DNA of 64,000 nt from positions 14,484 through 78,483 of the forward strand of contig CANQDQ010000007.1 of assembly GCA_947593515.1 (NCBI GenBank), in the 5' to 3' direction. The notes under the pieces were generated by a model, which did not search any database, was not told where the DNA came from, and saw only the letters and a list, made by a program, of their open reading frames with translations. Below, piece after piece: positions 11,625-35,444 of this stretch (positions are counted from its first letter, which is position 1; every line of letters begins with the position of its first letter). A program made the translations under genes and the position numbers. This DNA is from an uncultured Bacteroidales bacterium (GTDB lineage Bacteria; Bacteroidota; Bacteroidia; Bacteroidales; UBA11471).

Positions 11625-12689
11625 ATGAAAACAAAATTCTTACTCCTCGCAGGAGTCGCCGCACTCCTCTCCGCCTGCGGCGAAAAGTACACCATCACCG
11701 CCAACTGCGACGAAAGCGACAACGGCACGCAAGCCTATCTCTACGACCTGATGACCGGCGACGCCATCGACAGCTCTGTCGTAACCAACGGAAATATCGT
11801 ATTCAACGGCAGCCTCAACGGCGACGCCAAATTATGCCGCATTTCGTTTGCATCGGGATATTCGGATATATTCGTGCTCGAAGGCGGCAACATCGTTTTC
11901 GAGAGTGAAAACGCTGCGGGTACCCCTCAAAACGATTCCATACAAAGTTTCATCAACGCGTGCATAAATTCCCGCACACAGCACGTCGAAGCCTATAAAG
12001 CGCTCGACCGCAATGCCGCCGATTACAACGAACAAGTCGAAGCGATAAGCAACGCCATGCGCGACGACATCGGCAAAATATGCACCGGCTACATAGAGGC
12101 AATGCCCGGCAGCCGCGTCGCTACCTACTGCCTAATCAACTGGCTGCCCATGCTTGCGTTTGAAGAAGATCTCCTCGACAAAGCCGTTGCATACGCATCG
12201 GAAACCGACCTGCAATATCCCGATATTCAGAAATATATCAAAATAAACAATGCCCGCAAAACTACTGCAAAAGGGCAGATGTTCACCGACTTCACCATCG
12301 AAAACGGCAACCTCGACAGCACCGCCGTATCGCTCTCCGACTACGTGGGCAAAGGCAAATACATTCTGGTCGATTTCTGGGCTTCGTGGTGCGGACCCTG
12401 CCGTGCCGAAATACCGAACGTCAAAGAAGTATATAACCGGCACCACGGCGACCGCTTCGACATCGTAAGCGTTGCCGTATGGGACCAGCGCGACGCCACC
12501 CTCAAAGCCATCGAAGAATTGGCGCTGCCGTGGAATCAAATCATCGATGCCGGTGATATTCCCACCAAACTCTACGGCATTCCGGGCATTCCCGAACTCA
12601 TACTCTTCGCTCCCGACGGCACGATTGCCGCTCGCGGACTGCGCGGCGACGTATTGAAACAAACCGTTGCCGACGCCCTCGCCCAATAA
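11625..12689 (+). CDS. TlpA/AhpC-like thiol-disulfide oxidoreductase lipoprotein
   Basis: Lipobox LLSAC near the N-terminus. C-terminal thioredoxin fold with WASWCGPC. Confidence 0.8.
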   Translation: MKTKFLLLAGVAALLSACGEKYTITANCDESDNGTQAYLYDLMTGDAIDSSVVTNGNIVFNGSLNGDAKLCRISFASGYSDIFVLEGGNIVFESENAAGTPQNDSIQSFINACINSRTQHVEAYKALDRNAADYNEQVEAISNAMRDDIGKICTGYIEAMPGSRVATYCLINWLPMLAFEEDLLDKAVAYASETDLQYPDIQKYIKINNARKTTAKGQMFTDFTIENGNLDSTAVSLSDYVGKGKYILVDFWASWCGPCRAEIPNVKEVYNRHHGDRFDIVSVAVWDQRDATLKAIEELALPWNQIIDAGDIPTKLYGIPGIPELILFAPDGTIAARGLRGDVLKQTVADALAQ

Positions 12690-12750
12690 TCCGGCGCGCC
12701 GAAACCGCATAACACGCGGGGCGGGAAATTTCCCGCCCCGCTGTTTTTTT
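12670..12750 (+). repeat. direct repeat DR1, copy A (3' end of the TlpA-like gene + spacer + terminator)
   Basis: Recurs at 17247-17326. The first 63 nt differ only at 12703 (a vs g) and 12730 (t vs c). The remainder is a diverged but still self-complementary hairpin plus a T-run. Confidence 0.9.
12716..12750 (+). terminator. rho-independent terminator
   Basis: Perfect hairpin GCGGGGCGGGAAATTTCCCGCCCCGC followed by TGTTTTTTT. Confidence 0.85.
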
Positions 12751-16333: not shown

Positions 16334-17266
16334 ATGAAACATTTTCTGATATATATTGCAGCTGTGCTGCTCTTTGTTATCCCGTTCCTGTGTGTCGGAG
16401 AATGGCTTGTTCGACAAGTACCGAATGCATATCGCTACAAAGAAGAATGGATGGAAGCCCATCATAACGAAGTGAATACTCTTATCTTAGGAAATTCACA
16501 CTCATACGCTGCGGTCAAACCCGACATGATGGATAAGGATACATTCGGCGTAACATTCAATCTCGCTAATTTCTGGCAAACACTCGACATGGATTATTTC
16601 CTGTTGCAAAAATTCGATTGTCCCCAATTAAAAACGCTGCTTATCCCGATATCTTATCCGACTTTTTTCTTCGAAAATATGGGAGTTTCCCCAAAAAGAT
16701 TGATTTACTATAAATTGTATATGAACTATCCCGCCAAACCATTTTACAGCAATTTTGAATTTTTCGACCTGCAAACTTTTGGCACGAAAGTTCGTGCTTT
16801 CTTCTTTCCGCCCGAAGACGTAGGATACGACAAATACGGGTGGACAACATCTTACAAGTTGAAATATAAAGATCCGTTACTCATGCTTAACGGAGATGAG
16901 GCACGTACTCACACACGTAAGAAATGGAAAGAAGCGGTGGAAATCTCCGAAAAAAATTACGCCATTCTGCAACACATTGCCGACGACTGCAAACAACGAG
17001 AAATAAAACTCGTGCTTTTTACGACACCCGCATGGTATTCCTACCGCAATCTTATCGACAGCCGCCAATTTGCAAGAATGCACGAACTTATCACACGGTT
17101 TCTGCAACAAAACGAGGGGACAATGTATTTTGATTATTTGGCCGATTCCCGATTTACAGACGAAGACTTTTGCAACAGTAATCATCTATCGGACATCGGA
17201 GCAGAAAAATTCACAAAAATTCTCTGTAATGACATAGAGGAACAAACCGACGCCCTCGCCCAATAA
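16334..17266 (+). CDS. membrane-anchored DltD/AlgJ-like (SGNH-like) partner protein
   Basis: 310 aa with an N-terminal TM anchor. LILGNSHSY resembles SGNH/DltD block I and NSNHLSDIGAEKF resembles block V. It lies directly after the MBOAT gene. Its last 6 codons and stop lie inside DR1 copy B. Assignment is tentative. Confidence 0.5.
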   Translation: MKHFLIYIAAVLLFVIPFLCVGEWLVRQVPNAYRYKEEWMEAHHNEVNTLILGNSHSYAAVKPDMMDKDTFGVTFNLANFWQTLDMDYFLLQKFDCPQLKTLLIPISYPTFFFENMGVSPKRLIYYKLYMNYPAKPFYSNFEFFDLQTFGTKVRAFFFPPEDVGYDKYGWTTSYKLKYKDPLLMLNGDEARTHTRKKWKEAVEISEKNYAILQHIADDCKQREIKLVLFTTPAWYSYRNLIDSRQFARMHELITRFLQQNEGTMYFDYLADSRFTDEDFCNSNHLSDIGAEKFTKILCNDIEEQTDALAQ

Positions 17267-17326
17267 TCCGGCGCGCCGAGACCGCATAACACGCGGGGCG
17301 GGAAATCTCCTGCCCGCGTGTTTTTT
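17247..17326 (+). repeat. direct repeat DR1, copy B
   Basis: See 12670-12750. It supplies the codons DALAQ* to the upstream ORF and a terminator hairpin. Confidence 0.9.
17290..17326. terminator. bidirectional terminator shared by the islet operon and the convergent ATPase gene
   Basis: Hairpin CACGCGGGGCGGGA/TCCTGCCCGCGTG followed by TTTTTT. The ATPase stop codon is about 15 nt further on, on the opposite strand. Confidence 0.7.
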
Positions 17327-17341
17327 ACCTCGATACGCGGC

Positions 17342-18688
17342 TTACTTCAATCCCGACAAATCCACCTTATAATAAGACGGCGCGGCTTGATTTTTTTCGA
17401 GAAACATCACCATATAAATCGGGGCATACACGATTTTACCCGCCACGCGCAGGTTGTCGCTGTTGAAAACAATTGCCTCCGGCAGGTCGTATTCTTCGCA
17501 CGCCATGATGTTCGACAAGGCGCGATGGCTCTCGTAGTCCTTGCCCGATTTCACTTCCAGAGGCAGCACCGCACCGCCGAGTTCAACGACAAAATCGACC
17601 TCCCCGCGTTTTTTGTTGTTATAGTAGTAAGGCTCCAACCCGTGCGCCACCAACTCCTGCGCCACTGCATTCTCGTATATTGCGCCGTAATTTATATTCT
17701 TATCGCCCTTGATGATACGCAGTTGAATGCCTTCGGCATATTGTGCCGCCAGCAATCCGACATCGTTCTGAAAAAGTTTGAACAGATTTCGTGAACGGGC
17801 AAGCAGCAAAGGCATCTTCGGTTCCTCCACGTTGTACACCGGCAATGCCACGCCGGCATTTTTCAGCCAAACGAAACCGGTTTCGCAGCGGTCGAATTTC
17901 GCATTTTCATTCAACCGTTTCAAAATGAAGCGTTTATTTTTCGCATTGAGTTCCGGCGGAATAAGTTCGAATATCTCTTCGAGATAGAGTTTGTCTTTCA
18001 AATCATATTGGGCAATATCGCGCTTATACAGCCGGATAATATCCTGCTGTATCGTCATGACTTCCTGCAAATTGTTGTTTTCCATATACTTGCTCACCAC
18101 CGCAGGCATACCGCCCACCACCAGATAGAGGCGGAACAGTTCCATGATTTTCCGATGGACGAACGCATCGACCGGCGTGCGATGCTCCCACGCCGAACGC
18201 AACGCGGCGACGACCTGTCCGTCGATGCCAACACAAGTAATAAACTCCTCGAAATCGAGCGGATACATCTCCTTGATGCCCATATACCCCACCGGCTCGG
18301 AACGCAGGTCGCGCAACTCCACCCCCAACAGCGAACCGCTCAAAATGTATCGGTAAGAGCCTTCATCGACCAAAAATTTAATGGCGGTTACTATATCCGG
18401 ACACCGCTGCACCTCGTCGAAAAAAATCAATGTCCGACCTTTGACAAGCGGCGTCGCCGTCATTGCCGAAATGCGGAACAGAATCTCGGCGGCACTCTTT
18501 GCACCCTTGAATATTTCCACCGCATCGGGATTCTCCACAAAATTGATTTCGATAAAACTTTTGAACGTCTTGCCAAATTCCCGAATCGAAAATGTCTTGC
18601 CGGTTTGTCGGGCGCCGGTAACCAACAAGGCACTGCGCGTGTGCGCGTAATAATTCCGGAGATAGGCATCTATTTTTCTTCGAATCAT
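17342..18688 (-). CDS. AAA+ ATPase with C-terminal DUF4143 / PD-(D/E)xK-like domain (COG1373 type), copy 1
   Basis: 448 aa. Walker A GARQTGKT, Walker B LIFFDEVQ, and C-terminal GEVDFVV...LPLEVKSGK (D...ExK nuclease-like motif). Confidence 0.8.
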   Translation of the reverse strand: MIRRKIDAYLRNYYAHTRSALLVTGARQTGKTFSIREFGKTFKSFIEINFVENPDAVEIFKGAKSAAEILFRISAMTATPLVKGRTLIFFDEVQRCPDIVTAIKFLVDEGSYRYILSGSLLGVELRDLRSEPVGYMGIKEMYPLDFEEFITCVGIDGQVVAALRSAWEHRTPVDAFVHRKIMELFRLYLVVGGMPAVVSKYMENNNLQEVMTIQQDIIRLYKRDIAQYDLKDKLYLEEIFELIPPELNAKNKRFILKRLNENAKFDRCETGFVWLKNAGVALPVYNVEEPKMPLLLARSRNLFKLFQNDVGLLAAQYAEGIQLRIIKGDKNINYGAIYENAVAQELVAHGLEPYYYNNKKRGEVDFVVELGGAVLPLEVKSGKDYESHRALSNIMACEEYDLPEAIVFNSDNLRVAGKIVYAPIYMVMFLEKNQAAPSYYKVDLSGLK

Positions 18689-18726: not shown

Positions 18727-18857
18727 ATTTGCCGTTTTTCCATGACAAATATATACTGTTTTTGCCGTTTTTCCAAGAAAAATAATGGAATTTTTGCCGC
18801 TTTTCCAATATAAAATCGCCCCGTTTTTGCCGTTTTTCCATTTTTTTGCAAGGAAAT
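18727..18857. repeat. array of four ~33-bp units sharing the core TTTGCCG(T/C)TTTTCCA
   Basis: The core gccgtttttcca occurs at 18731, 18764, 18796 (gccgcttttcca) and 18829, spaced 33/32/33 nt. The inter-core segments are not conserved. Confidence 0.8.
18746..18753 (-). promoter_or_regulatory. -7 promoter box TATATTTG for ATPase copy 1
   Basis: The reverse complement of caaatata matches TAnnTTTG, 58 nt upstream of ATG 18688, between repeat units 1 and 2. Confidence 0.45.
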
Positions 18858-18889
18858 AGCGGGCGATAATCGCCCGTAACTTCGTGCCC
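18812..18889 (+). repeat. direct repeat DR2, copy A
   Basis: 78 nt recur at 21940-22015 with 3 substitutions and 3 single-base gaps, two in T runs and one in a short C run at the distal end. Contains repeat unit 4 and the palindrome CGGGCGATAATCGCCCG. Confidence 0.9.
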
Positions 18890-18936
18890 AAAAAGAAAAC
18901 GCGAGGTGGGAATTTTCCGCCTCGCGTCCGTTTTTA
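18890..18936. terminator. bidirectional terminator downstream of the LRR gene
   Basis: Hairpin ACGCGAGGTGGGAATTTTCCGCCTCGCGT, flanked by a T-run in the sense of each strand. Confidence 0.75.
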
Positions 18937-18955: not shown

Positions 18956-21463
18956 CTATCGGACAATTATCATCGTCTTGCCGTTCACGATGTAGGCACC
19001 GTTCTGTAACGTTTTGAGGTCGGCGGCATCATCGGTTTCGAGTACCAACACGCCTTGCAGATTATATACCGTTATGTGTCCGTCGGTTTGCTGCGTTTCC
19101 GTTATCGATGACGGCTCGTCGGGTTCTACGGGCTCCGGCTCTTTTATCGTGTAGGTATAGGTGAGTTCGGGGTTGCTATGTCCCGTTTTCGGGTCGGCGG
19201 CAAAGACGTCGTCGCCGAATGTTCCTGCCGGAATTACGAGCAGATAAGTTCCTGCTTCGGTCAGGCTGTATTCGGCAGCCTTTGTCTGTTCGTCGCCTTG
19301 CAGGGCAATGATGAAACTTTTTCCGTCTTCACTCGCTGTAATGCGGGCGGGATAGTATGCCGAGCTGTCTGCTTTCATCACCGTTGCCGAGTCGCCCACG
19401 AGGGCGGGACGCTCGTCGAAAGCGAGCGTAAAGGTGGAGAGGGCGGTTATCGTTTCGTCGTTTTCAGCAGGAGTTATCGTCGGTGCGGCTTCGAAGTCGT
19501 ATGCCACGATCGGCAATATCGTTCCGAACTCCTTCCACCCTTCGGCGGCTTTATACTTTTCTACCGATTCGGCAGGTACATACAACGTACAGATGGAACA
19601 ATCCGTGTCCGAAAAAGTTATTCCGCTTAAATTCGGCGGTATCGGATTATATATGGTTATTTTTGTCAAACTCGAACAATACGCAAAAATCTGCATACCG
19701 ATGTTTTGAATGTTACTCCTTATCGTTACCTCATTCAACTTGGAGCAATTGTAAAAAGCGCCTTGCTCAATAGTCGTAACACTCTCCGGTATCGTTATCG
19801 AAGTCAAGCTCTCGCAGCGGATAAAAGCACTGATCCCGATAGTCGTAACACGATTGCCCATCGTTACAGAAGCCATGTTGCCGCAGTCGTAAAAAGCCTT
19901 GTTGCCAATAATTAAAACATTATCGGGAATTATTATCGACTGCAGACTCGCGCAATAATAAAAAGCCCCGTCTCCGATAATGGTAACGCTATTGGGTATG
20001 GTTGCTGAAATCAAGCCATTACAACCATAAAAGGCGTATGAGCCGATAACCGTAACGCCTTCCGGTATCGTTACCGATTCCAGACCCGAACACCGTTGAA
20101 AAGCTCTATCACCGATAATAGTTACCCCTTCGGGTATGGTATAATCTGCTACTCCACATTTCGGTGCAAAGGCTATAAACAAAGTGTCATTTACGATAAG
20201 GCTGCAATAATCGTCCGTTGCAAACTTTCCCTTGAATTTTTCAATATTCGTACAGCCACGAAATGCCCCAGAAGCAATAGAGACAACACTCTCCGGTATC
20301 GTTACCGACGTTAAGCCGACACAATCCTCAAAAGCAGCCTCGCCGATAGTGGTAACACTCTCCGGTATTGTTACCGATGTTAACTCTGAGCAACCGGAAA
20401 AAGCACTGCTGCCAATAACTTTAACTTCGTCCGGTATGGTATATTGAGTCAATCCACTCGGTGCAAACGCTTTCAAGGTATCATCTACGATAAGACAGCA
20501 ATGATCGTTCGATGCCAATGGTCCATCAAATTCTTCCAAACTTTCACAACCAAGAAAAACTCCGTCGCCGATAGTCATACTGCTGCTGCCTATCGTTACA
20601 TTTGTCAAACTCCCACAATCCAAAAAAACTTCGTCGCCGATAGCGGTAACGCCGTTACCTATCATTACCGACGTTAACACTCTGCAAGAGTGAAATGCCC
20701 GATTGCCGATAGTGGTAACACTGTTGGGTATCGTTACCGATGTTAAATTCCTGCAATAGTCAAAAGCCTTATTACCGATAGCAGTAACACCCTCGTTTAT
20801 TTTTACCTCTGCTAAACGCGAACAACTCGAAAAAGCAGCATCTCCTATCAAAACGACGTTTGCCGGTATCGTTACCGATTCCAAAGCAGAGCAACCGGAA
20901 AAAGATCCAGTGCCGATAACCTTAATATTTTCAGGTATAATATAGTCATTCAGCCCGTTTGGCGCAAAGGCTTTCAACGTATCCTTTATGATAAGACAGC
21001 GCCCTTCTTCCGCAGCAAATTTTCCTTCAAAATATACCAACGACACACAACCTGAAAAAGCCCTGTCGCCGATAGTGGTAACACCGTCGGGTATCGTTAT
21101 CGACGTCAAACGGCTGCAATTGGCAAAAGCTCTTTCGCCAATAGTGGTAACGCTTTCGGGTATTGTTACCGATGTCAGGTATGTGCAACCCTCAAAAGCA
21201 TAGTCGCCGATAGAAGCAATACCATCACTTACCGTTACCGAATTAATCGAAGTGCGATAATTATACCATGGGGTCTTCCTTTCAGCATAATTTCTCATGG
21301 CTCCCGTACCGGAGATTTCGAGGACACCGGTTTCGGTATCGAGTTTCCATGTAACATTGGCACTGCAATAGCCGCTGTAGATTTCGGCTTGCACCGTTGC
21401 CGCTCCGCCCCACAAGAGCGCGGACAGCAACATAAAAAACAGTGTGCGTTTCATTTTTGTCAT
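18956..21463 (-). CDS. BspA-type leucine-rich-repeat surface protein with T9SS C-terminal sorting domain
   Basis: 835 aa with a signal peptide. About 25 copies of the ~23-aa unit xSVTIPxSVTxIGxxAFxxCxxL. C-terminal ITVYNLQGVLVLETDDAADLKTLQNGAYIVNGKTMIIVR is a typical T9SS CTD. Confidence 0.85.
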   Translation of the reverse strand: MTKMKRTLFFMLLSALLWGGAATVQAEIYSGYCSANVTWKLDTETGVLEISGTGAMRNYAERKTPWYNYRTSINSVTVSDGIASIGDYAFEGCTYLTSVTIPESVTTIGERAFANCSRLTSITIPDGVTTIGDRAFSGCVSLVYFEGKFAAEEGRCLIIKDTLKAFAPNGLNDYIIPENIKVIGTGSFSGCSALESVTIPANVVLIGDAAFSSCSRLAEVKINEGVTAIGNKAFDYCRNLTSVTIPNSVTTIGNRAFHSCRVLTSVMIGNGVTAIGDEVFLDCGSLTNVTIGSSSMTIGDGVFLGCESLEEFDGPLASNDHCCLIVDDTLKAFAPSGLTQYTIPDEVKVIGSSAFSGCSELTSVTIPESVTTIGEAAFEDCVGLTSVTIPESVVSIASGAFRGCTNIEKFKGKFATDDYCSLIVNDTLFIAFAPKCGVADYTIPEGVTIIGDRAFQRCSGLESVTIPEGVTVIGSYAFYGCNGLISATIPNSVTIIGDGAFYYCASLQSIIIPDNVLIIGNKAFYDCGNMASVTMGNRVTTIGISAFIRCESLTSITIPESVTTIEQGAFYNCSKLNEVTIRSNIQNIGMQIFAYCSSLTKITIYNPIPPNLSGITFSDTDCSICTLYVPAESVEKYKAAEGWKEFGTILPIVAYDFEAAPTITPAENDETITALSTFTLAFDERPALVGDSATVMKADSSAYYPARITASEDGKSFIIALQGDEQTKAAEYSLTEAGTYLLVIPAGTFGDDVFAADPKTGHSNPELTYTYTIKEPEPVEPDEPSSITETQQTDGHITVYNLQGVLVLETDDAADLKTLQNGAYIVNGKTMIIVR

Positions 21464-21497: not shown

Positions 21498-21939
21498 GTC
21501 TGAAAATGTAAATTTACAAAACTTTCCGCTAAAAATTTTTGGTTTCATTCGCAAAATGCTCTCCGAATCGGAAAAGTACAATCGTTCTTTTTTCATGTTT
21601 CAAAAAATTTGTGCCCGCTGTTCCCCGACAAGGCGTTAATAATAAATTGGATATAATAAAAGCGTGAGGAACAATTTCCGTTTATCTTACAAGAGGTATC
21701 GCCAAACACCCGTAGAGAAATAAACAGCTACCCCACGCCTGCCATATATGAACACCTCACGGCGCATATCGGCTGCATGAGCGTTTGTACTGTCTTTCCT
21801 TCTCTACAAAACTTTGGCGAAATTTCTTGTAAAGGATAAAACGAAACGCTTTACGAATCAATCGTTTGCGGAGAACCGCCGTTCCCCGTATCGCCACAAA
21901 GATAGTAAAATAACTGATTACTTGACGCTTTCTCAATAC

Positions 21940-22015
21940 AAAATCGTCCCGTTTTGCCGTTTTTCCATTTTTTGCAAGGAAATAGCGGGCGATTATCGTC
22001 CGTAACTTCGTGCCA
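21940..22015 (+). repeat. direct repeat DR2, copy B
   Basis: See 18812-18889. Here the palindrome is degraded to CGGGCGATTATCGTCCG. Confidence 0.9.
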
Positions 22016-22129: not shown

Positions 22130-22166
22130 GATGAATAAGTATTTATTTTAATGAATTTTTCCGAAC
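22130..22166. promoter_or_regulatory. possible tandem ARG-box-like sites
   Basis: Two TGAAT cores at 22132 and 22152 (20 nt apart) in an AT-rich context (TGAATAAGTATTTA, TGAATTTTTCCGAA). Only a partial fit to TNTGAATWWWWATTCANW. Confidence 0.3.
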
Positions 22167-22259
22167 TATTGCCTGTCCGACGGGCGGGCGGTTATCGACT
22201 TTTTTTCGTCGGTAAAAAATTTTCTTTAAAGAAATGCATCGAAAGTAAATTTTTATACA

Positions 22260-22267
22260 TATATTTG
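22260..22267 (+). promoter_or_regulatory. -7 promoter box TATATTTG for argR
   Basis: Exact TAnnTTTG, 28 nt before ATG 22295. Confidence 0.5.
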
Positions 22268-22277
22268 CAGCCTCAAA

Positions 22278-22291
22278 AGAATAAATATTCG
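22278..22291. promoter_or_regulatory. candidate ARG box (ArgR operator) between promoter and argR start
   Basis: AGAATAAATATTCG is a near-palindrome that fits TGAATWWWWATTCA at 12 of 14 positions. Confidence 0.45.
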
Positions 22292-22294
22292 GAC

Positions 22295-22777
22295 ATGAAA
22301 AATAAAGTAAACAGATTAGACGCTATCAAAGCCATTGTAAGCGGCAGCCGCATAGGCGGACAGGAAGAGCTGTTGGAGCAGCTGCGCCGCAAGGGATTTG
22401 AATTGACGCAGGCTACCCTGTCGCGCGACCTCAAATCGCTACAAATCGTGAAAATAGCGCACCAAAACGGCAGCTATCAATACGTATTGCCCGAAGCCGT
22501 AAGTTTGGTAAGCCGGAAACCATCGGTCATCGACACGCCACCCCTGACGGCAGCAAACAATTTCTTTTCCATAGCGTTTTCAGGGCAAATGGTGGTAATG
22601 AAGACACGCCCGGGCTATGCCGGCGGCACGGCTTTCGAGATAGACTCTCACGCTTTTCCCGAATTTCTCGGCTCCGTAGCCGGCGACGACACGGTGCTGC
22701 TCGTCCTGCGCGAAGGGGTGTCGCACGAAAAAGCGCTCTCCGTCCTGCGCACAATCATTCCGAATATTGCATTATAA
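22295..22777 (+). CDS. argR: arginine repressor
   Basis: 160 aa from MKNKVNRLDAIKAIV. wHTH region TQATLSRDLKSL, with a C-terminal DDTVLLVL-type domain. The track ORF start (22151) is an upstream extension. Confidence 0.85.
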   Translation: MKNKVNRLDAIKAIVSGSRIGGQEELLEQLRRKGFELTQATLSRDLKSLQIVKIAHQNGSYQYVLPEAVSLVSRKPSVIDTPPLTAANNFFSIAFSGQMVVMKTRPGYAGGTAFEIDSHAFPEFLGSVAGDDTVLLVLREGVSHEKALSVLRTIIPNIAL

Positions 22778-33898: not shown

Positions 33899-35287
33899 TT
33901 ATTTCTCGATACCTTGCGTCATCTGCTCCATTTGGGCAATAGCATACAGCGGACAAATGCGAATATGTCGGACTTCGGAACAATCCTCTTTATCTACATA
34001 ATCGAACTTGCCGAAATTCTCCATCGAGCATCGAATGGCAAAATGCAGTTTCTTCTCCCGCATAAATAACCAAAGGCTTTTCATTCCGCCCTGCTTGTCC
34101 GCTTTCACTTCGATAGGCACGACTGTTTGTAAATAATTCGATATGTAATCTATTTCCGCTTGGGAATTTTTCTCATGCCTTACCCAATAGAACAAATCGT
34201 GTCGTATATTCGGACTCATATGATGCAGCATTTCAAGCCCTACGAGTAATTCCGCCATCGGACCTTTATTTGCCAAATCAGCCGCGCTTGCAGTTAAAAT
34301 TTGTTCCGTCAATTCCGATACATCGCCTAACGACATATTTAATAAGCGCAATAACAGACCCGTATCGAGCAACAGCATCTTCTGATACGACTTATCTTCT
34401 TCGCTGCCTAACGGCAATCCGTTGGCATCGGTATGGGTTACGGGGTGCAGGATTCCGGCAAGAACCAGCAATTCTACGGCTTTTTTGACTTCTGCGGTCT
34501 TATAATCCGAGCCGACCTTTGAATATACGAACTTCTTCGTGGCTTGAACCGCAGCACTGCGCAGGGTTTGACGCAGTAAAACCGGATCTGCATTTTTCTT
34601 GTATTTGGGGAAATCATCTTCGTATGTAACGACAATATCATCTTGCACTTCCTGACATCTTACATAATCGTGATACTCGACCCACGTCTTGACGGCTTCC
34701 GGCATTCCGCCCACCAGCATATAGGTGCGAAACAGCTCCACCAGTTTGTCATGCAGCGGTGCAGGCAGCGGATTATCTATCGAGGATTGGTTGCGGGCTT
34801 CGAGCAGCAGCTGCTGTCCATTCGCTTCGAGAAATTCATCAAAGGTCATCGGATACATGAACATGGAATGTATTCTTCCGACACCAAATGTGGGGAGTTC
34901 TTTCAATGCAAATTCAAGGAGAGAACCGGCAGCAATTATATGCAGGTCGGGCATCTCCTCTTTGAAAAAGCGCAAAGCCATTATAGCTTGGGGGCACTCC
35001 TGTATTTCATCAAAGAACAAAAGCGTCTTGCCCGGCTTAATCGAGGTCCCATACATGGCAGCTATTTGCGGAACGATACGCTTTACATCTAAATCATCTT
35101 TGAACAGCGCTTTGTATTTAGGCTGCTTTTCAAAGTTTATCTCAACAAACGTTTCAAATTTCTTGGATAGTTCTTGAACAGCCGTCGATTTTCCTACCTG
35201 CCTTGCTCCTCTAAGCAACAGGGGTTTGTGGGTATCTCTCGATGCCCATTCCCATAGATATTTGTCGATAAGTCTTTTACAATACAT
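33899..35287 (-). CDS. AAA+ ATPase with C-terminal DUF4143 / PD-(D/E)xK-like domain, copy 2
   Basis: 462 aa. Walker A GARQVGKS, Walker B LLFFDEIQ, C-terminal AEIDYIS...VPIEVKADK. A distant paralogue of 17342-18688. Confidence 0.8.
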   Translation of the reverse strand: MYCKRLIDKYLWEWASRDTHKPLLLRGARQVGKSTAVQELSKKFETFVEINFEKQPKYKALFKDDLDVKRIVPQIAAMYGTSIKPGKTLLFFDEIQECPQAIMALRFFKEEMPDLHIIAAGSLLEFALKELPTFGVGRIHSMFMYPMTFDEFLEANGQQLLLEARNQSSIDNPLPAPLHDKLVELFRTYMLVGGMPEAVKTWVEYHDYVRCQEVQDDIVVTYEDDFPKYKKNADPVLLRQTLRSAAVQATKKFVYSKVGSDYKTAEVKKAVELLVLAGILHPVTHTDANGLPLGSEEDKSYQKMLLLDTGLLLRLLNMSLGDVSELTEQILTASAADLANKGPMAELLVGLEMLHHMSPNIRHDLFYWVRHEKNSQAEIDYISNYLQTVVPIEVKADKQGGMKSLWLFMREKKLHFAIRCSMENFGKFDYVDKEDCSEVRHIRICPLYAIAQMEQMTQGIEK

Positions 35288-35318: not shown

Positions 35319-35331
35319 GGAAAACGAAATT

Positions 35332-35444
35332 ATCCAAACAAATAAATTGGCTGAAAATGAAAAAATCCAAAGAAATAAATTGCCGAAAATCGCAAAAATC
35401 CAAAGAAATAAATCACCAGAAAATGAAAAAATCCAAACAAATAA
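35332..35444. repeat. tandem repeat, 33-bp unit x 3 full copies + a 14-nt fourth start
   Basis: Units start at 35332, 35365, 35398 and 35431. They read atccaaacaaataaattggctgaaaatgaaaaa / atccaaagaaataaattgccgaaaatcgcaaaa / atccaaagaaataaatcaccagaaaatgaaaaa / atccaaacaaataa... Confidence 0.9.

What the first reader, a model, noticed from the sequence alone, without database searches (positions are those of the whole stretch)
18727..18857. Four helically phased (~33-bp) repeats of TTTGCCGTTTTTCCA upstream of an AAA+/DUF4143 ATPase gene
What the sequence shows:
- The 12-15-nt core occurs at 18731, 18764, 18796 and 18829, spaced 33/32/33 nt, which is about three helical turns.
- The spacers are non-conserved.
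- A TAnnTTTG promoter box (18746-18753, minus strand) lies between units 1 and 2, and the ATPase ATG is at 18688.
- A fifth copy of the core sits in the duplicated segment at about 21954-21965.

Inference: same-face, evenly spaced sites are typical of cooperative binding arrays such as iterons or autoregulatory operators. Nothing in the annotated genes explains them. The second ATPase paralogue in the window has an equally periodic but unrelated array (see 35332-35444).
Basis: partly seen in the sequence, partly recalled or inferred. Interest (0 to 1): 0.65.

Follow-up and report, generated by a model that had tools for sequence, protein, structure and literature searches.

The report
Conserved operator repeats of ATPase-nuclease gene
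The four evenly spaced repeats are real, and they are conserved binding sites built into the promoter of a very common but uncharacterised ATPase-nuclease gene (a candidate phage defence), most likely read by the gene's own protein, which gives a direct experimental handle on that family.

Summary
Four copies of TGGAAAA(A/G)CGGCAAA (gene strand) lie 33/32/33 nt apart, directly upstream of an AAA_14/DUF4143 gene (PADLOC candidate PDC-S01).

- **Promoter position.** The array contains the promoter. The TAnnTTTG box lies 11 nt upstream of unit 1. Unit 2 supplies a -35-like TTGGAA.
- **Conservation.** In about 78 orthologous loci (54-98% protein identity; Bacteroidales, Akkermansiaceae, Succinatimonas) the core recurs 0-10 times, median 3. 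Spacing is 32/33 nt in 148 of 155 intervals. Spacers vary and no neighbouring gene is conserved.
- **Family-wide pattern.** In this genome, 8 of 11 non-coding short-period tandem arrays lie upstream of DUF4143 paralogues. Each has its own core, and the period follows the protein subfamily (22-23 or 32-33 nt).
- **Protein.** The predicted structure is AAA+, lid, winged helix and PD-(D/E)XK nuclease, closest in fold to Orc1/Cdc6-type ATPases. Residues 262-267, at the start of the recognition helix, track a variable core base.
- **Best explanation.** This is a private operator array bound head-to-tail by the ATPase itself, probably repressing its own gene. Binding is inferred, not shown.
- **Fifth copy.** It is a by-product of a lineage-specific ~105-bp duplication that brackets the LRR gene.

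I found no publication describing these arrays.

The parts
18728..18742 (-). Unit 1 (promoter-proximal), TGGAAAAACGGCAAA. It starts 11 nt after the start of the -7 box, so it covers the expected transcription start.
   Evidence: fixed 11-nt register with TAnnTTTG in 31 orthologous loci
18761..18775 (-). Unit 2, TGGAAAAACGGCAAA. With the preceding T (18776) it forms a -35/-33-like TTGGAA, 17 nt upstream of TATATT.
18793..18807 (-). Unit 3, TGGAAAAGCGGCAAA. It carries the A/G variant that is also tolerated within orthologous arrays.
18826..18840 (-). Unit 4 (distal), TGGAAAAACGGCAAA.
18746..18753 (-). Bacteroidetes-type -7 promoter box TATATTTG (TAnnTTTG), in the spacer between units 2 and 1.
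   Evidence: The consensus is from established knowledge of Bacteroides promoters. The transcription start was not mapped.
17342..18688 (-). AAA_14 + DUF4143 ATPase-nuclease gene (448 aa; PADLOC PDC-S01). The model shows AAA+ 1-150, lid to about 228, winged helix 233-307 and PD-(D/E)XK about 335-410. Walker A K31, Walker B D91/E92 and nuclease residues E339, D365, E378, K380 are all conserved.
18843..18890 (-). Conserved ~50-nt 'tail' distal to the array. It contains the 17-bp palindrome CGGGCGATTATCGCCCG (18860-18876). It is shared with the 98% orthologues but not with the ~80% orthologues.
18899..18927 (.). Terminator-like hairpin (scan match on the + strand, T-run after it) ending the upstream LRR gene. 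It marks the outer limit of the ATPase regulatory region.
21910..22015 (-). Duplicate of unit 3 (decayed, 21921-21935), unit 4 (exact, 21953-21967) and the tail. Together with 18782-18890 it brackets the BspA-type LRR gene 18956-21463 and its promoter. It lies upstream of argR (22151-22777).
35320..35444 (-). Private 33-nt array of the second DUF4143 paralogue, core TTTATTT(C/G)TTTGGATTTTT. Its proximal unit abuts the TATTTTTG box.
33899..35287 (-). Second AAA_14 + DUF4143 ATPase gene (462 aa, 29% identical to the first).

Best explanation
The four repeats are sequence-specific protein-binding sites. Together with the promoter embedded in them, they form a conserved cis-regulatory module that travels with this AAA+/winged-helix/PD-(D/E)XK ATPase-nuclease gene.

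The most likely reader is the gene's own product. Its winged-helix domain would recognise the ~18-nt core (C)TTGGAAAA-RYGG-MAAAA, and protomers would line up head-to-tail on the direct repeats, one per ~33 bp. The proximal unit covers the transcription start and unit 2 overlaps the -35/-33 element, so occupancy would block RNA polymerase and the gene would repress itself.

- **Shown:** the array, its conservation, its register with the promoter, its family-wide and paralogue-specific nature, and the predicted winged helix.
- **Inferred:** that the ATPase is the binder, that binding is cooperative, and that the effect is repression rather than activation or loading for another function.
For: **1. 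Conservation of the core.** In about 78 orthologous loci (54-98% identity) the core regex hits 230 times in 31 kb of upstream sequence on the gene strand, against 22 times in 834 kb elsewhere.
- Spacing is 32 or 33 nt in 148 of 155 intervals, and the rest are mostly multiples.
- Orientation is always that of the gene.
- Spacer positions 18-22 carry no information.
- Loci that the regex missed still show arrays by eye (L095, L096, L119).

**2. The array travels with the gene alone.** It is present in Akkermansiaceae and Succinatimonas copies. The commonest neighbouring gene family occurs in only 9 loci.

**3. Family-wide and private.**
- In this genome 8 of 11 non-coding arrays of period 18-36 lie <=300 nt upstream of the 12 DUF4143 genes (hypergeometric P about 2e-17).
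- 8 of the 13 PF13635 hits (12 above the Pfam cut-off) have a 10-mer repeated >=4 times upstream, against 4 of 600 control upstream regions.
- Each paralogue has its own core, and the period follows the protein subfamily.
- In three non-Bacteroidota genomes 12 of 28 paralogues have upstream arrays and 0 of 28 have downstream arrays.
- Relatives of paralogue 2 at 40-70% identity nearly all show arrays by eye, most with their own core.

**4. Promoter register.** TAnnTTTG starts exactly 11 nt upstream of a unit in 31 loci and is in phase (22 = 33-11) in most others. The -35-like TTGGAA is the 5' end of unit 2.

**5. Protein.**
- The AF2 model (pLDDT 85, pTM 0.87) has helices 233-248, 255-261 and 265-277 plus a beta wing.
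- The best fold matches are archaeal ATPase 2qen and DNA-bound Orc1/Cdc6 structures 2qby and 2v1u.
- The paralogue alignment shows a canonical wHTH pattern in this region.

**6. Covariation.** K264 goes with G at core position 10 in 47 of 47 loci. R264 goes with C/T in 19 of 21, across three or four separate branches of the tree. Of all 448 columns, 262, 264 and 267 are three of the five best predictors of that base.
Against: - No binding, expression or transcription-start data exist.
- Covariation among orthologues is heavily confounded by phylogeny. Residues 330 and 361 in the nuclease domain predict the base equally well, and two Akkermansia loci break the K/R rule.
- The model is least confident exactly at residues 250-270 (pLDDT 51-72).
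- 33 bp (about 112 A) is long for direct AAA+-AAA+ contacts unless the DNA is bent.
- Sites overlapping -35 can also activate transcription.
- An active nuclease that binds its own promoter needs some unexplained protection against self-cleavage.
Confidence: 0.65

Rival explanations
1. The ATPase does bind the array, but the purpose is not transcriptional control. The array would be a nucleation, parking or licensing site for the ATPase-nuclease, for example holding the nuclease inactive until infection or loading an ATP-dependent filament. In this it would resemble ORC on ORB elements or DnaA on DnaA boxes.
For: - The fold resembles Orc1/Cdc6 and MuB.
- The nuclease and ATPase catalytic residues are intact.
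- Copy number reaches 10 units (about 320 bp), more than repression needs.
- The family is a defence candidate (PMC12988326).
Against: The fixed register with the -7 box and the overlap with the start site and -35 point to promoter control at least as one function. The two roles are not exclusive.
Confidence: 0.15
2. The repeats are bound by some other trans-acting factor, such as a host regulator, and not by the ATPase.
For: No direct evidence links the ATPase to the DNA. The covariation signal is weak.
Against: - Every paralogue has a different core, so a dozen dedicated regulators would be needed in a 2.26-Mb genome.
- The array accompanies the gene into other phyla, and no other gene is conserved next to it.
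Confidence: 0.08
3. The array is a recombination or integration site, and the repeats matter because they promote cassette insertion or duplication.
For: - Direct repeats of about 80-113 bp bracket cassettes on both sides of this ATPase (window 12670/17247 and 18776/21904).
- The array itself is duplicated around the C20 ATPase.
- Tandem expansions with alternating spacers occur in L083.
Against: - No recombinase is associated with the arrays.
- About 78 orthologous loci have no satellite copies.
- This reading does not explain the core-versus-spacer conservation or the promoter register.
- Any repeat can undergo unequal exchange without that being its function.
Confidence: 0.05
4. The array is a neutral minisatellite, or purely structural DNA in which phased A-tracts curve the promoter, with no sequence-specific reader.
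For: Each unit has two A-tracts about 9-10 nt apart. There is no RNA structure (z = -1.28) and no Rfam match.
Against: - Non-A positions (TGG, RYGG) are conserved over 54-98% protein divergence while the spacers randomise.
- The cores of other paralogues are not A-tract-like.
- Orientation relative to the gene is strict.
Confidence: 0.03

Closest known systems
Plasmid iterons with their autoregulated Rep gene (e.g. P1 RepA, F RepE, pPS10 RepA, R6K pi); comparison from established knowledge
   Same: - Three to ten direct repeats with a conserved ~18-nt core.
- Spacing fixed at a whole number of helical turns.
- Located next to, and overlapping the promoter of, the gene whose winged-helix product is thought to read them.
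- Each lineage has a private sequence.
   Different: - The locus is chromosomal, with about 12 independent gene-array pairs per genome.
- There are no origin features.
- The protein is an AAA+ ATPase fused to a PD-(D/E)XK nuclease, not a WH1-WH2 Rep.
- The period is 32-33 (or 22-23) nt.
Archaeal Orc1/Cdc6 with origin recognition boxes (PDB 2qby, 2v1u) and DnaA with DnaA boxes at the dnaA promoter
   Same: - AAA+, lid and winged-helix architecture by fold.
- Repeated cognate sites sit next to the protein's own gene.
- The oligomer is ATP-dependent and directional.
   Different: - There is an extra C-terminal nuclease domain.
- There are many paralogues, each with its own site.
- The sites are direct tandem repeats inside a promoter.
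- There is no evidence for a replication role.
PADLOC candidate defence system PDC-S01 (COG1373; AAA_14 + DUF4143)
   Same: Both window proteins match PDC-S01 models end to end (E 8e-198 and 1e-143).
   Different: The published surveys I read treat PDC-S01 as a single, untested gene and do not mention a cis element. The array is the new part.

Membership tests
PDC-S01 / COG1373 (AAA_14 + DUF4143 ATPase-nuclease) | N-terminal AAA_14 P-loop domain with Walker A and Walker B motifs | tested here: met
   PF13173 E 2.9e-26. GARQTGKT and FFDE are conserved.
PDC-S01 / COG1373 (AAA_14 + DUF4143 ATPase-nuclease) | C-terminal DUF4143 (PD-(D/E)XK) domain with an E...D...E-x-K motif | tested here: met
   PF13635 E 6.3e-30. 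E339, D365, E378 and K380 are invariant in orthologues. DUF4143 is listed as PD-(D/E)XK in PMC3424549.
PDC-S01 / COG1373 (AAA_14 + DUF4143 ATPase-nuclease) | Full-length match to the PADLOC PDC-S01 model | tested here: met
   PDLC04792 E 8.2e-198, residues 1-446.
PDC-S01 / COG1373 (AAA_14 + DUF4143 ATPase-nuclease) | Anti-phage activity | not testable with these tools
Iteron / Rep autoregulatory arrays | Tandem direct repeats with a conserved core at helical-repeat spacing, overlapping the promoter of the adjacent gene | tested here: met
Iteron / Rep autoregulatory arrays | Repeats lie in a replication origin and the adjacent gene encodes a Rep-family initiator | tested here: not met
   - The protein is AAA_14/DUF4143.
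- There are 12 such loci on the chromosome.
- The flanking genes are housekeeping or surface-protein genes.
- No composition or skew test for an origin was run.
Iteron / Rep autoregulatory arrays | The adjacent gene's product binds the repeats | not testable with these tools
   This is only inferred, from co-transfer, the predicted winged helix and covariation.
Orc1/Cdc6-type initiators with ORB elements | AAA+, lid and C-terminal winged-helix fold | tested here: met
   Foldseek hits 2qby_A E 1.1e-5 and 2v1u_A E 2.8e-5, aligned over about 385-400 columns, but with low TM-scores (0.27-0.32).
Orc1/Cdc6-type initiators with ORB elements | Sequence membership in the Orc1/Cdc6 family and an origin function | tested here: not met
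   There is no Cdc6/Orc Pfam hit, and profile searches against PDB hit only generic AAA+ domains. Origin function was not tested.
CRISPR array | Repeats of 23-50 nt, unique spacers of 26-72 nt, and cas genes nearby | tested here: not met
   The core is 15-18 nt and the spacers 14-18 nt. Spacers are nearly identical in strains whose proteins are 98% identical. The neighbouring genes examined include no cas genes.
Structured RNA or small ORF | A stable or conserved RNA fold, or a preserved reading frame | tested here: not met
   RNA fold z = -1.28 and no Rfam match. The 33/32/33 spacing breaks any reading frame, and most of the array lies upstream of the -7 box.

The most novel reading that the evidence does not exclude
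DUF4143/PDC-S01 proteins are a huge family of sequence-programmable AAA+ nucleases.

- **Specificity.** Each protein's DNA specificity can be read from the array in front of its own gene. The invariant KRF-ILK segment (250-257) would read the constant TGGAAAA half, and residues 262-267 at the start of the recognition helix would read the variable RYGG half.
- **Role of the array.** The array would nucleate an ATP-dependent head-to-tail filament that both shuts off the gene and parks the nuclease until it is released.
- **Side effect.** DNA breaks or stalled complexes at these arrays would make them local hot spots for the ~100-bp-duplication cassette insertions seen on both sides of this gene and at C20.
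Probability: 0.12. Interest if true: 0.85.

Novelty: new variant of a known kind. Interest (0 to 1): 0.62.

Why it matters
PDC-S01/COG1373 is reported as the fourth most common defence candidate across prokaryotes and the most frequent single defence locus in rumen genomes (PMC12988326, PMC13356809). The surveys I read report no experimental test of it, and no ligand or structure turned up in my searches.

A conserved, paralogue-specific DNA site next to each gene gives the family its first predicted ligand. It also makes simple tests possible: gel shift, footprinting, reporter fusions, and swaps between recognition helix and core. If the protein-DNA pairing holds, hundreds of thousands of natural protein-site pairs would be available for learning a winged-helix recognition code. 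The arrays would also help to annotate promoters and to separate functional from decayed copies.

For this window specifically, the result explains an otherwise puzzling repeat and shows that the 'fifth copy' is a duplication scar.

Tried and rejected
- **Mutual information between core bases and all protein columns.** It is dominated by shared ancestry and does not single out the winged helix. Only the binary G/non-G test at core position 10 gave a local signal, so I treat covariation as suggestive only.
- **Distant relatives in metagenome contigs.** I used three non-Bacteroidota genomes reached through loci instead.
- **Sequence searches against PDB.** They returned only generic AAA+ hits. 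No member of the family has been solved.
- **Rfam and RNA folding.** Negative, so an RNA element is rejected.
- **CRISPR, small-ORF and neutral-minisatellite readings.** Rejected on unit size, broken reading frame and core-specific conservation.
- **Fifth copy as an independent operator for argR.** Rejected. The argR upstream regions of ten congeners lack it.
- **Literature search for AAA_14/PF13173/PF13635.** It returned mostly unrelated papers.

Full report
**Observation.**
- Tandem Repeats Finder gives a period-33 array of 3.5 copies at 18728-18840.
- The 15-nt core TTTGCCGTTTTTCCA (+ strand) occurs at 18728, 18761, 18793 (one mismatch) and 18826, and again at 21953. That is 6 matches at <=2 mismatches against 0.34 expected by shuffling.
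- In the whole 2.26-Mb genome the exact core occurs nowhere else.
- Read on the gene strand, the units are TGGAAAA(A/G)CGGCAAA, spaced 33/32/33 nt.
- The gene at 17342-18688 (minus strand) is AAA_14 + DUF4143. It matches the PADLOC candidate PDC-S01 end to end.
- The TAnnTTTG box (TATATTTG, 18753-18746) lies in the spacer between units 2 and 1.
- A sigma-70-type scan pairs TATATT with TTGGAA, which is the 5' end of unit 2.
- So unit 1 covers the expected transcription start and unit 2 overlaps the -35/-33 element.

**The array is a family trait.**
- The genome has 12 DUF4143 paralogues.
- TRF on their upstream 600 nt found arrays next to the promoter in at least 8. Each has its own sequence. 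Periods are 22-23 nt for the KWCGKTT and GPRQVGKS subfamilies and 32-33 nt for the GARQxGKT and RRxGKST subfamilies.
- Weaker two- to four-copy repeats are visible by eye in three more paralogues. C1 shows a single unit resembling the core of its closest paralogue C4.
- Genome-wide, 8 of the 11 non-coding arrays of period 18-36 lie within 300 nt upstream of these 12 genes (hypergeometric P about 2e-17). A ninth lies just downstream of one and has the same core.
- With an alignment-free statistic (best 10-mer, <=1 mismatch, non-overlapping copies in 250 nt), 8 of 13 targets score >=4 against 4 of 600 control upstream regions.

**Conservation in orthologues.**
- The search for related loci returned 80 loci encoding proteins 54-98% identical. 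They span many Bacteroidales families, three Akkermansiaceae MAGs and Succinatimonas hippei.
- A core regex hits 230 times in the 31 kb upstream on the gene strand, against 22 times in 834 kb of the remaining locus sequence on both strands.
- Copies per locus range from 0 to 10, median 3.
- 148 of 155 spacings are 32 or 33 nt, and most of the rest are 64 or 66 nt.
- Reverse-orientation hits are essentially absent.
- Three of the four loci with no regex hit (L095, L096, L119) still show three or four phased units of a slightly diverged core; the fourth (L109) does not.
- Positions outside the regex are also conserved (T at -1 in 92%, A-rich at 12-17). Spacer positions 18-22 carry no information.
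- The -7 box starts exactly 11 nt upstream of a unit in 31 loci. In most others it lies 22 nt (33-11) downstream of one, so it is phase-locked to the array.
- No neighbouring gene is conserved: the largest flanking family occurs in 9 loci. The gene plus its array is therefore the unit of inheritance and of horizontal transfer.

**Breadth.**
- In the Succinatimonas genome and two Akkermansiaceae genomes, 12 of 28 DUF4143 paralogues have TRF-detectable arrays (period 22-34) in the 300 nt upstream. None of 28 has one in the 300 nt downstream.
- For the second window paralogue, the two closest relatives (70% and 68% identity) keep the TTATTTCTTTGGAT core at 33-nt spacing.
- About 20 more distant relatives (40-54%) each carry three or four units of their own core at 32-33 nt. 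Often the proximal unit is fused to the TTTG of the -7 box.

**The candidate reader.**
- An AlphaFold2 model built on 49 sequences (pLDDT 85.4, pTM 0.87) shows AAA+ (1-150), a helical lid, then three helices (233-248, 255-261, 265-277) and a two-stranded wing (281-307). A PD-(D/E)XK core follows, with E339, D365, E378 and K380.
- Foldseek's best PDB matches are the archaeal Walker-type ATPase 2qen and DNA-bound Orc1/Cdc6 (2qby, 2v1u), followed by STAND/Avs and MuB.
- The paralogue alignment shows the canonical wHTH pattern in this region.
- No family member has a solved structure.
- Among orthologues, xAK at 262-264 goes with GG at core positions 9-10 in 47 of 47 loci. xAR goes with GT/GC in 19 of 21.
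- The tree places the switches on three or four separate branches (L079; the L094/L081/L095 group; the 62-65% clade; L117). The two Akkermansia loci are exceptions.
- Of all columns, 262, 264 and 267 are three of the five best predictors of that base; 330 and 361 are the other two.
- This is suggestive only. Plain mutual information is swamped by phylogeny, and the model is least confident at residues 250-270.

**Mechanism.** The best-supported reading is a private operator array.
- The ATPase's winged helix would bind each core and protomers would stack head-to-tail on the direct repeats.
- Occupancy of units 1 and 2 would occlude the promoter, giving autorepression.
- Protein binding itself, cooperativity and the sign of regulation are all inferred.
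- The main rival keeps the ATPase as binder but makes the array a loading or parking site for the nuclease. The two are not exclusive.
- A different trans factor is unlikely. Each paralogue would need its own factor, and the array follows the gene into other phyla.
- A purely structural or neutral repeat is excluded by conservation of the non-A-tract bases.
- An RNA element is excluded by position (mostly upstream of the -7 box), by folding (z = -1.28) and by Rfam.
- A small ORF is excluded by the 33/32/33 spacing, which breaks the frame.

**The fifth copy.**
- Segment 21910-22015 duplicates unit 3 (now 11 of 15 matches), unit 4 (exact) and the ~50-nt tail of 18782-18890 (113 nt at 87%).
- The two copies bracket the terminator, the BspA-type LRR gene (18956-21463) and its promoter region.
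- In ten genomes of the same genus the argR coding region is found, but the duplicated segment is found only next to the ATPase orthologues in G008 and G009, never upstream of argR.
- Orthologous loci elsewhere have no satellite units.
- The fifth copy is therefore a lineage-specific duplication scar and not an additional operator.
- A similar situation exists on contig C20. There an 87-nt copy of the array lies downstream of the ATPase and upstream of an SGNH esterase gene.

**Comparison with what is known.**
- In function the element works like plasmid iterons with their autoregulated Rep gene, or like ORB/DnaA-box clusters beside orc1/cdc6 or dnaA. It is not a member of those families. The protein is not a Rep or an Orc1/Cdc6 by sequence, there are 12 chromosomal copies, and nothing suggests an origin.
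- The gene is a bona fide PDC-S01/COG1373 member.
- Full-text searches for DUF4143, COG1373 and PDC-S01 returned 4, 8 and 7 papers. The passages I read mention no upstream repeat. [quoted passage not shown]
- Earlier AI notes from this scan report the same pattern in many other genomes. I treated them as leads, and my conclusions rest.

**Verdict.** This is a real, conserved cis-element. It is one instance of an apparently unpublished, family-wide pairing between DUF4143 ATPase-nuclease genes and private promoter arrays. I class it as a new variant of a known kind (autoregulatory direct-repeat operators). Interest is 0.62. Confidence in the self-binding autoregulation model is 0.65.

Noticed in passing
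own genome contig C20:507-617 and C20:2008-2104 (outside the window): The 23-nt array of another DUF4143 paralogue (core GCCAAGTTGTGAG) is present twice, at 87 nt and 88% identity. One copy is upstream of the ATPase. The other is just downstream of it and upstream of an SGNH/GDSL esterase gene (C20:2238-3509). The ATPase gene is therefore bracketed by direct copies of its own array.
   Followed up: partly
own genome contig C3:75801-75898 (outside the window): A 15/30-nt tandem array (ACAATTTTTGTGTA-like) lies directly upstream of a different AAA ATPase, of family PF01637 ATPase_2. That is the family of the best structural match, 2qen. The array habit may extend to this sister family.
   Followed up: partly
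window 12670-12749 / 17247-17326 and 18776-18888 / 21904-22014: The ATPase gene plus its array is flanked on both sides by cassette insertions, each bracketed by 80-113-nt direct repeats. Of roughly eight intergenic bracket-type repeat pairs in the genome, three lie next to DUF4143 genes. I did not test whether that is more than chance.
   Followed up: partly
window 21880-21912: A 33-nt segment containing a minus-strand TATCTTTG box recurs at 88-97% identity at many places in G000, G008 and G009, some of them near BspA-type LRR repeat genes. It appears to be the shared promoter region of that gene family, and implies a ~430-nt leader for the LRR gene here.
   Followed up: no
L029 (genome G029, another family): The 77% orthologue keeps only two units. 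It sits back to back with a second AAA ATPase gene that has its own three repeats (GCCGATATCCACCAAATGT). So two private arrays share one intergenic region.
   Followed up: no
L083, L090, L091 (Bacteroidales and Paludibacteraceae MAGs): Orthologous arrays have expanded to 7-10 units, with spacers alternating between two or three types. This indicates recent tandem duplication of multi-unit blocks, so copy number is labile even between close relatives.
   Followed up: no
window 18860-18876: A perfect 17-bp palindrome, CGGGCGATTATCGCCCG, lies in the tail distal to the array. It is partly kept in the 98% orthologues (G008, G009) and in the duplicate (one arm mutated), but is absent from the ~80% orthologues. 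Its function is unknown.
   Followed up: partly
window 22151-22777: The argR ORF is 208 aa, but the Arg_repressor DNA-binding domain begins only at residue 51. The real start may lie further downstream.
   Followed up: no
L080, L088, L095, L096: Orthologues at 67-72% identity occur in Akkermansiaceae and in Succinatimonas hippei (Gammaproteobacteria), with the array intact. This indicates inter-phylum transfer of the gene-array unit among gut bacteria.
   Followed up: partly
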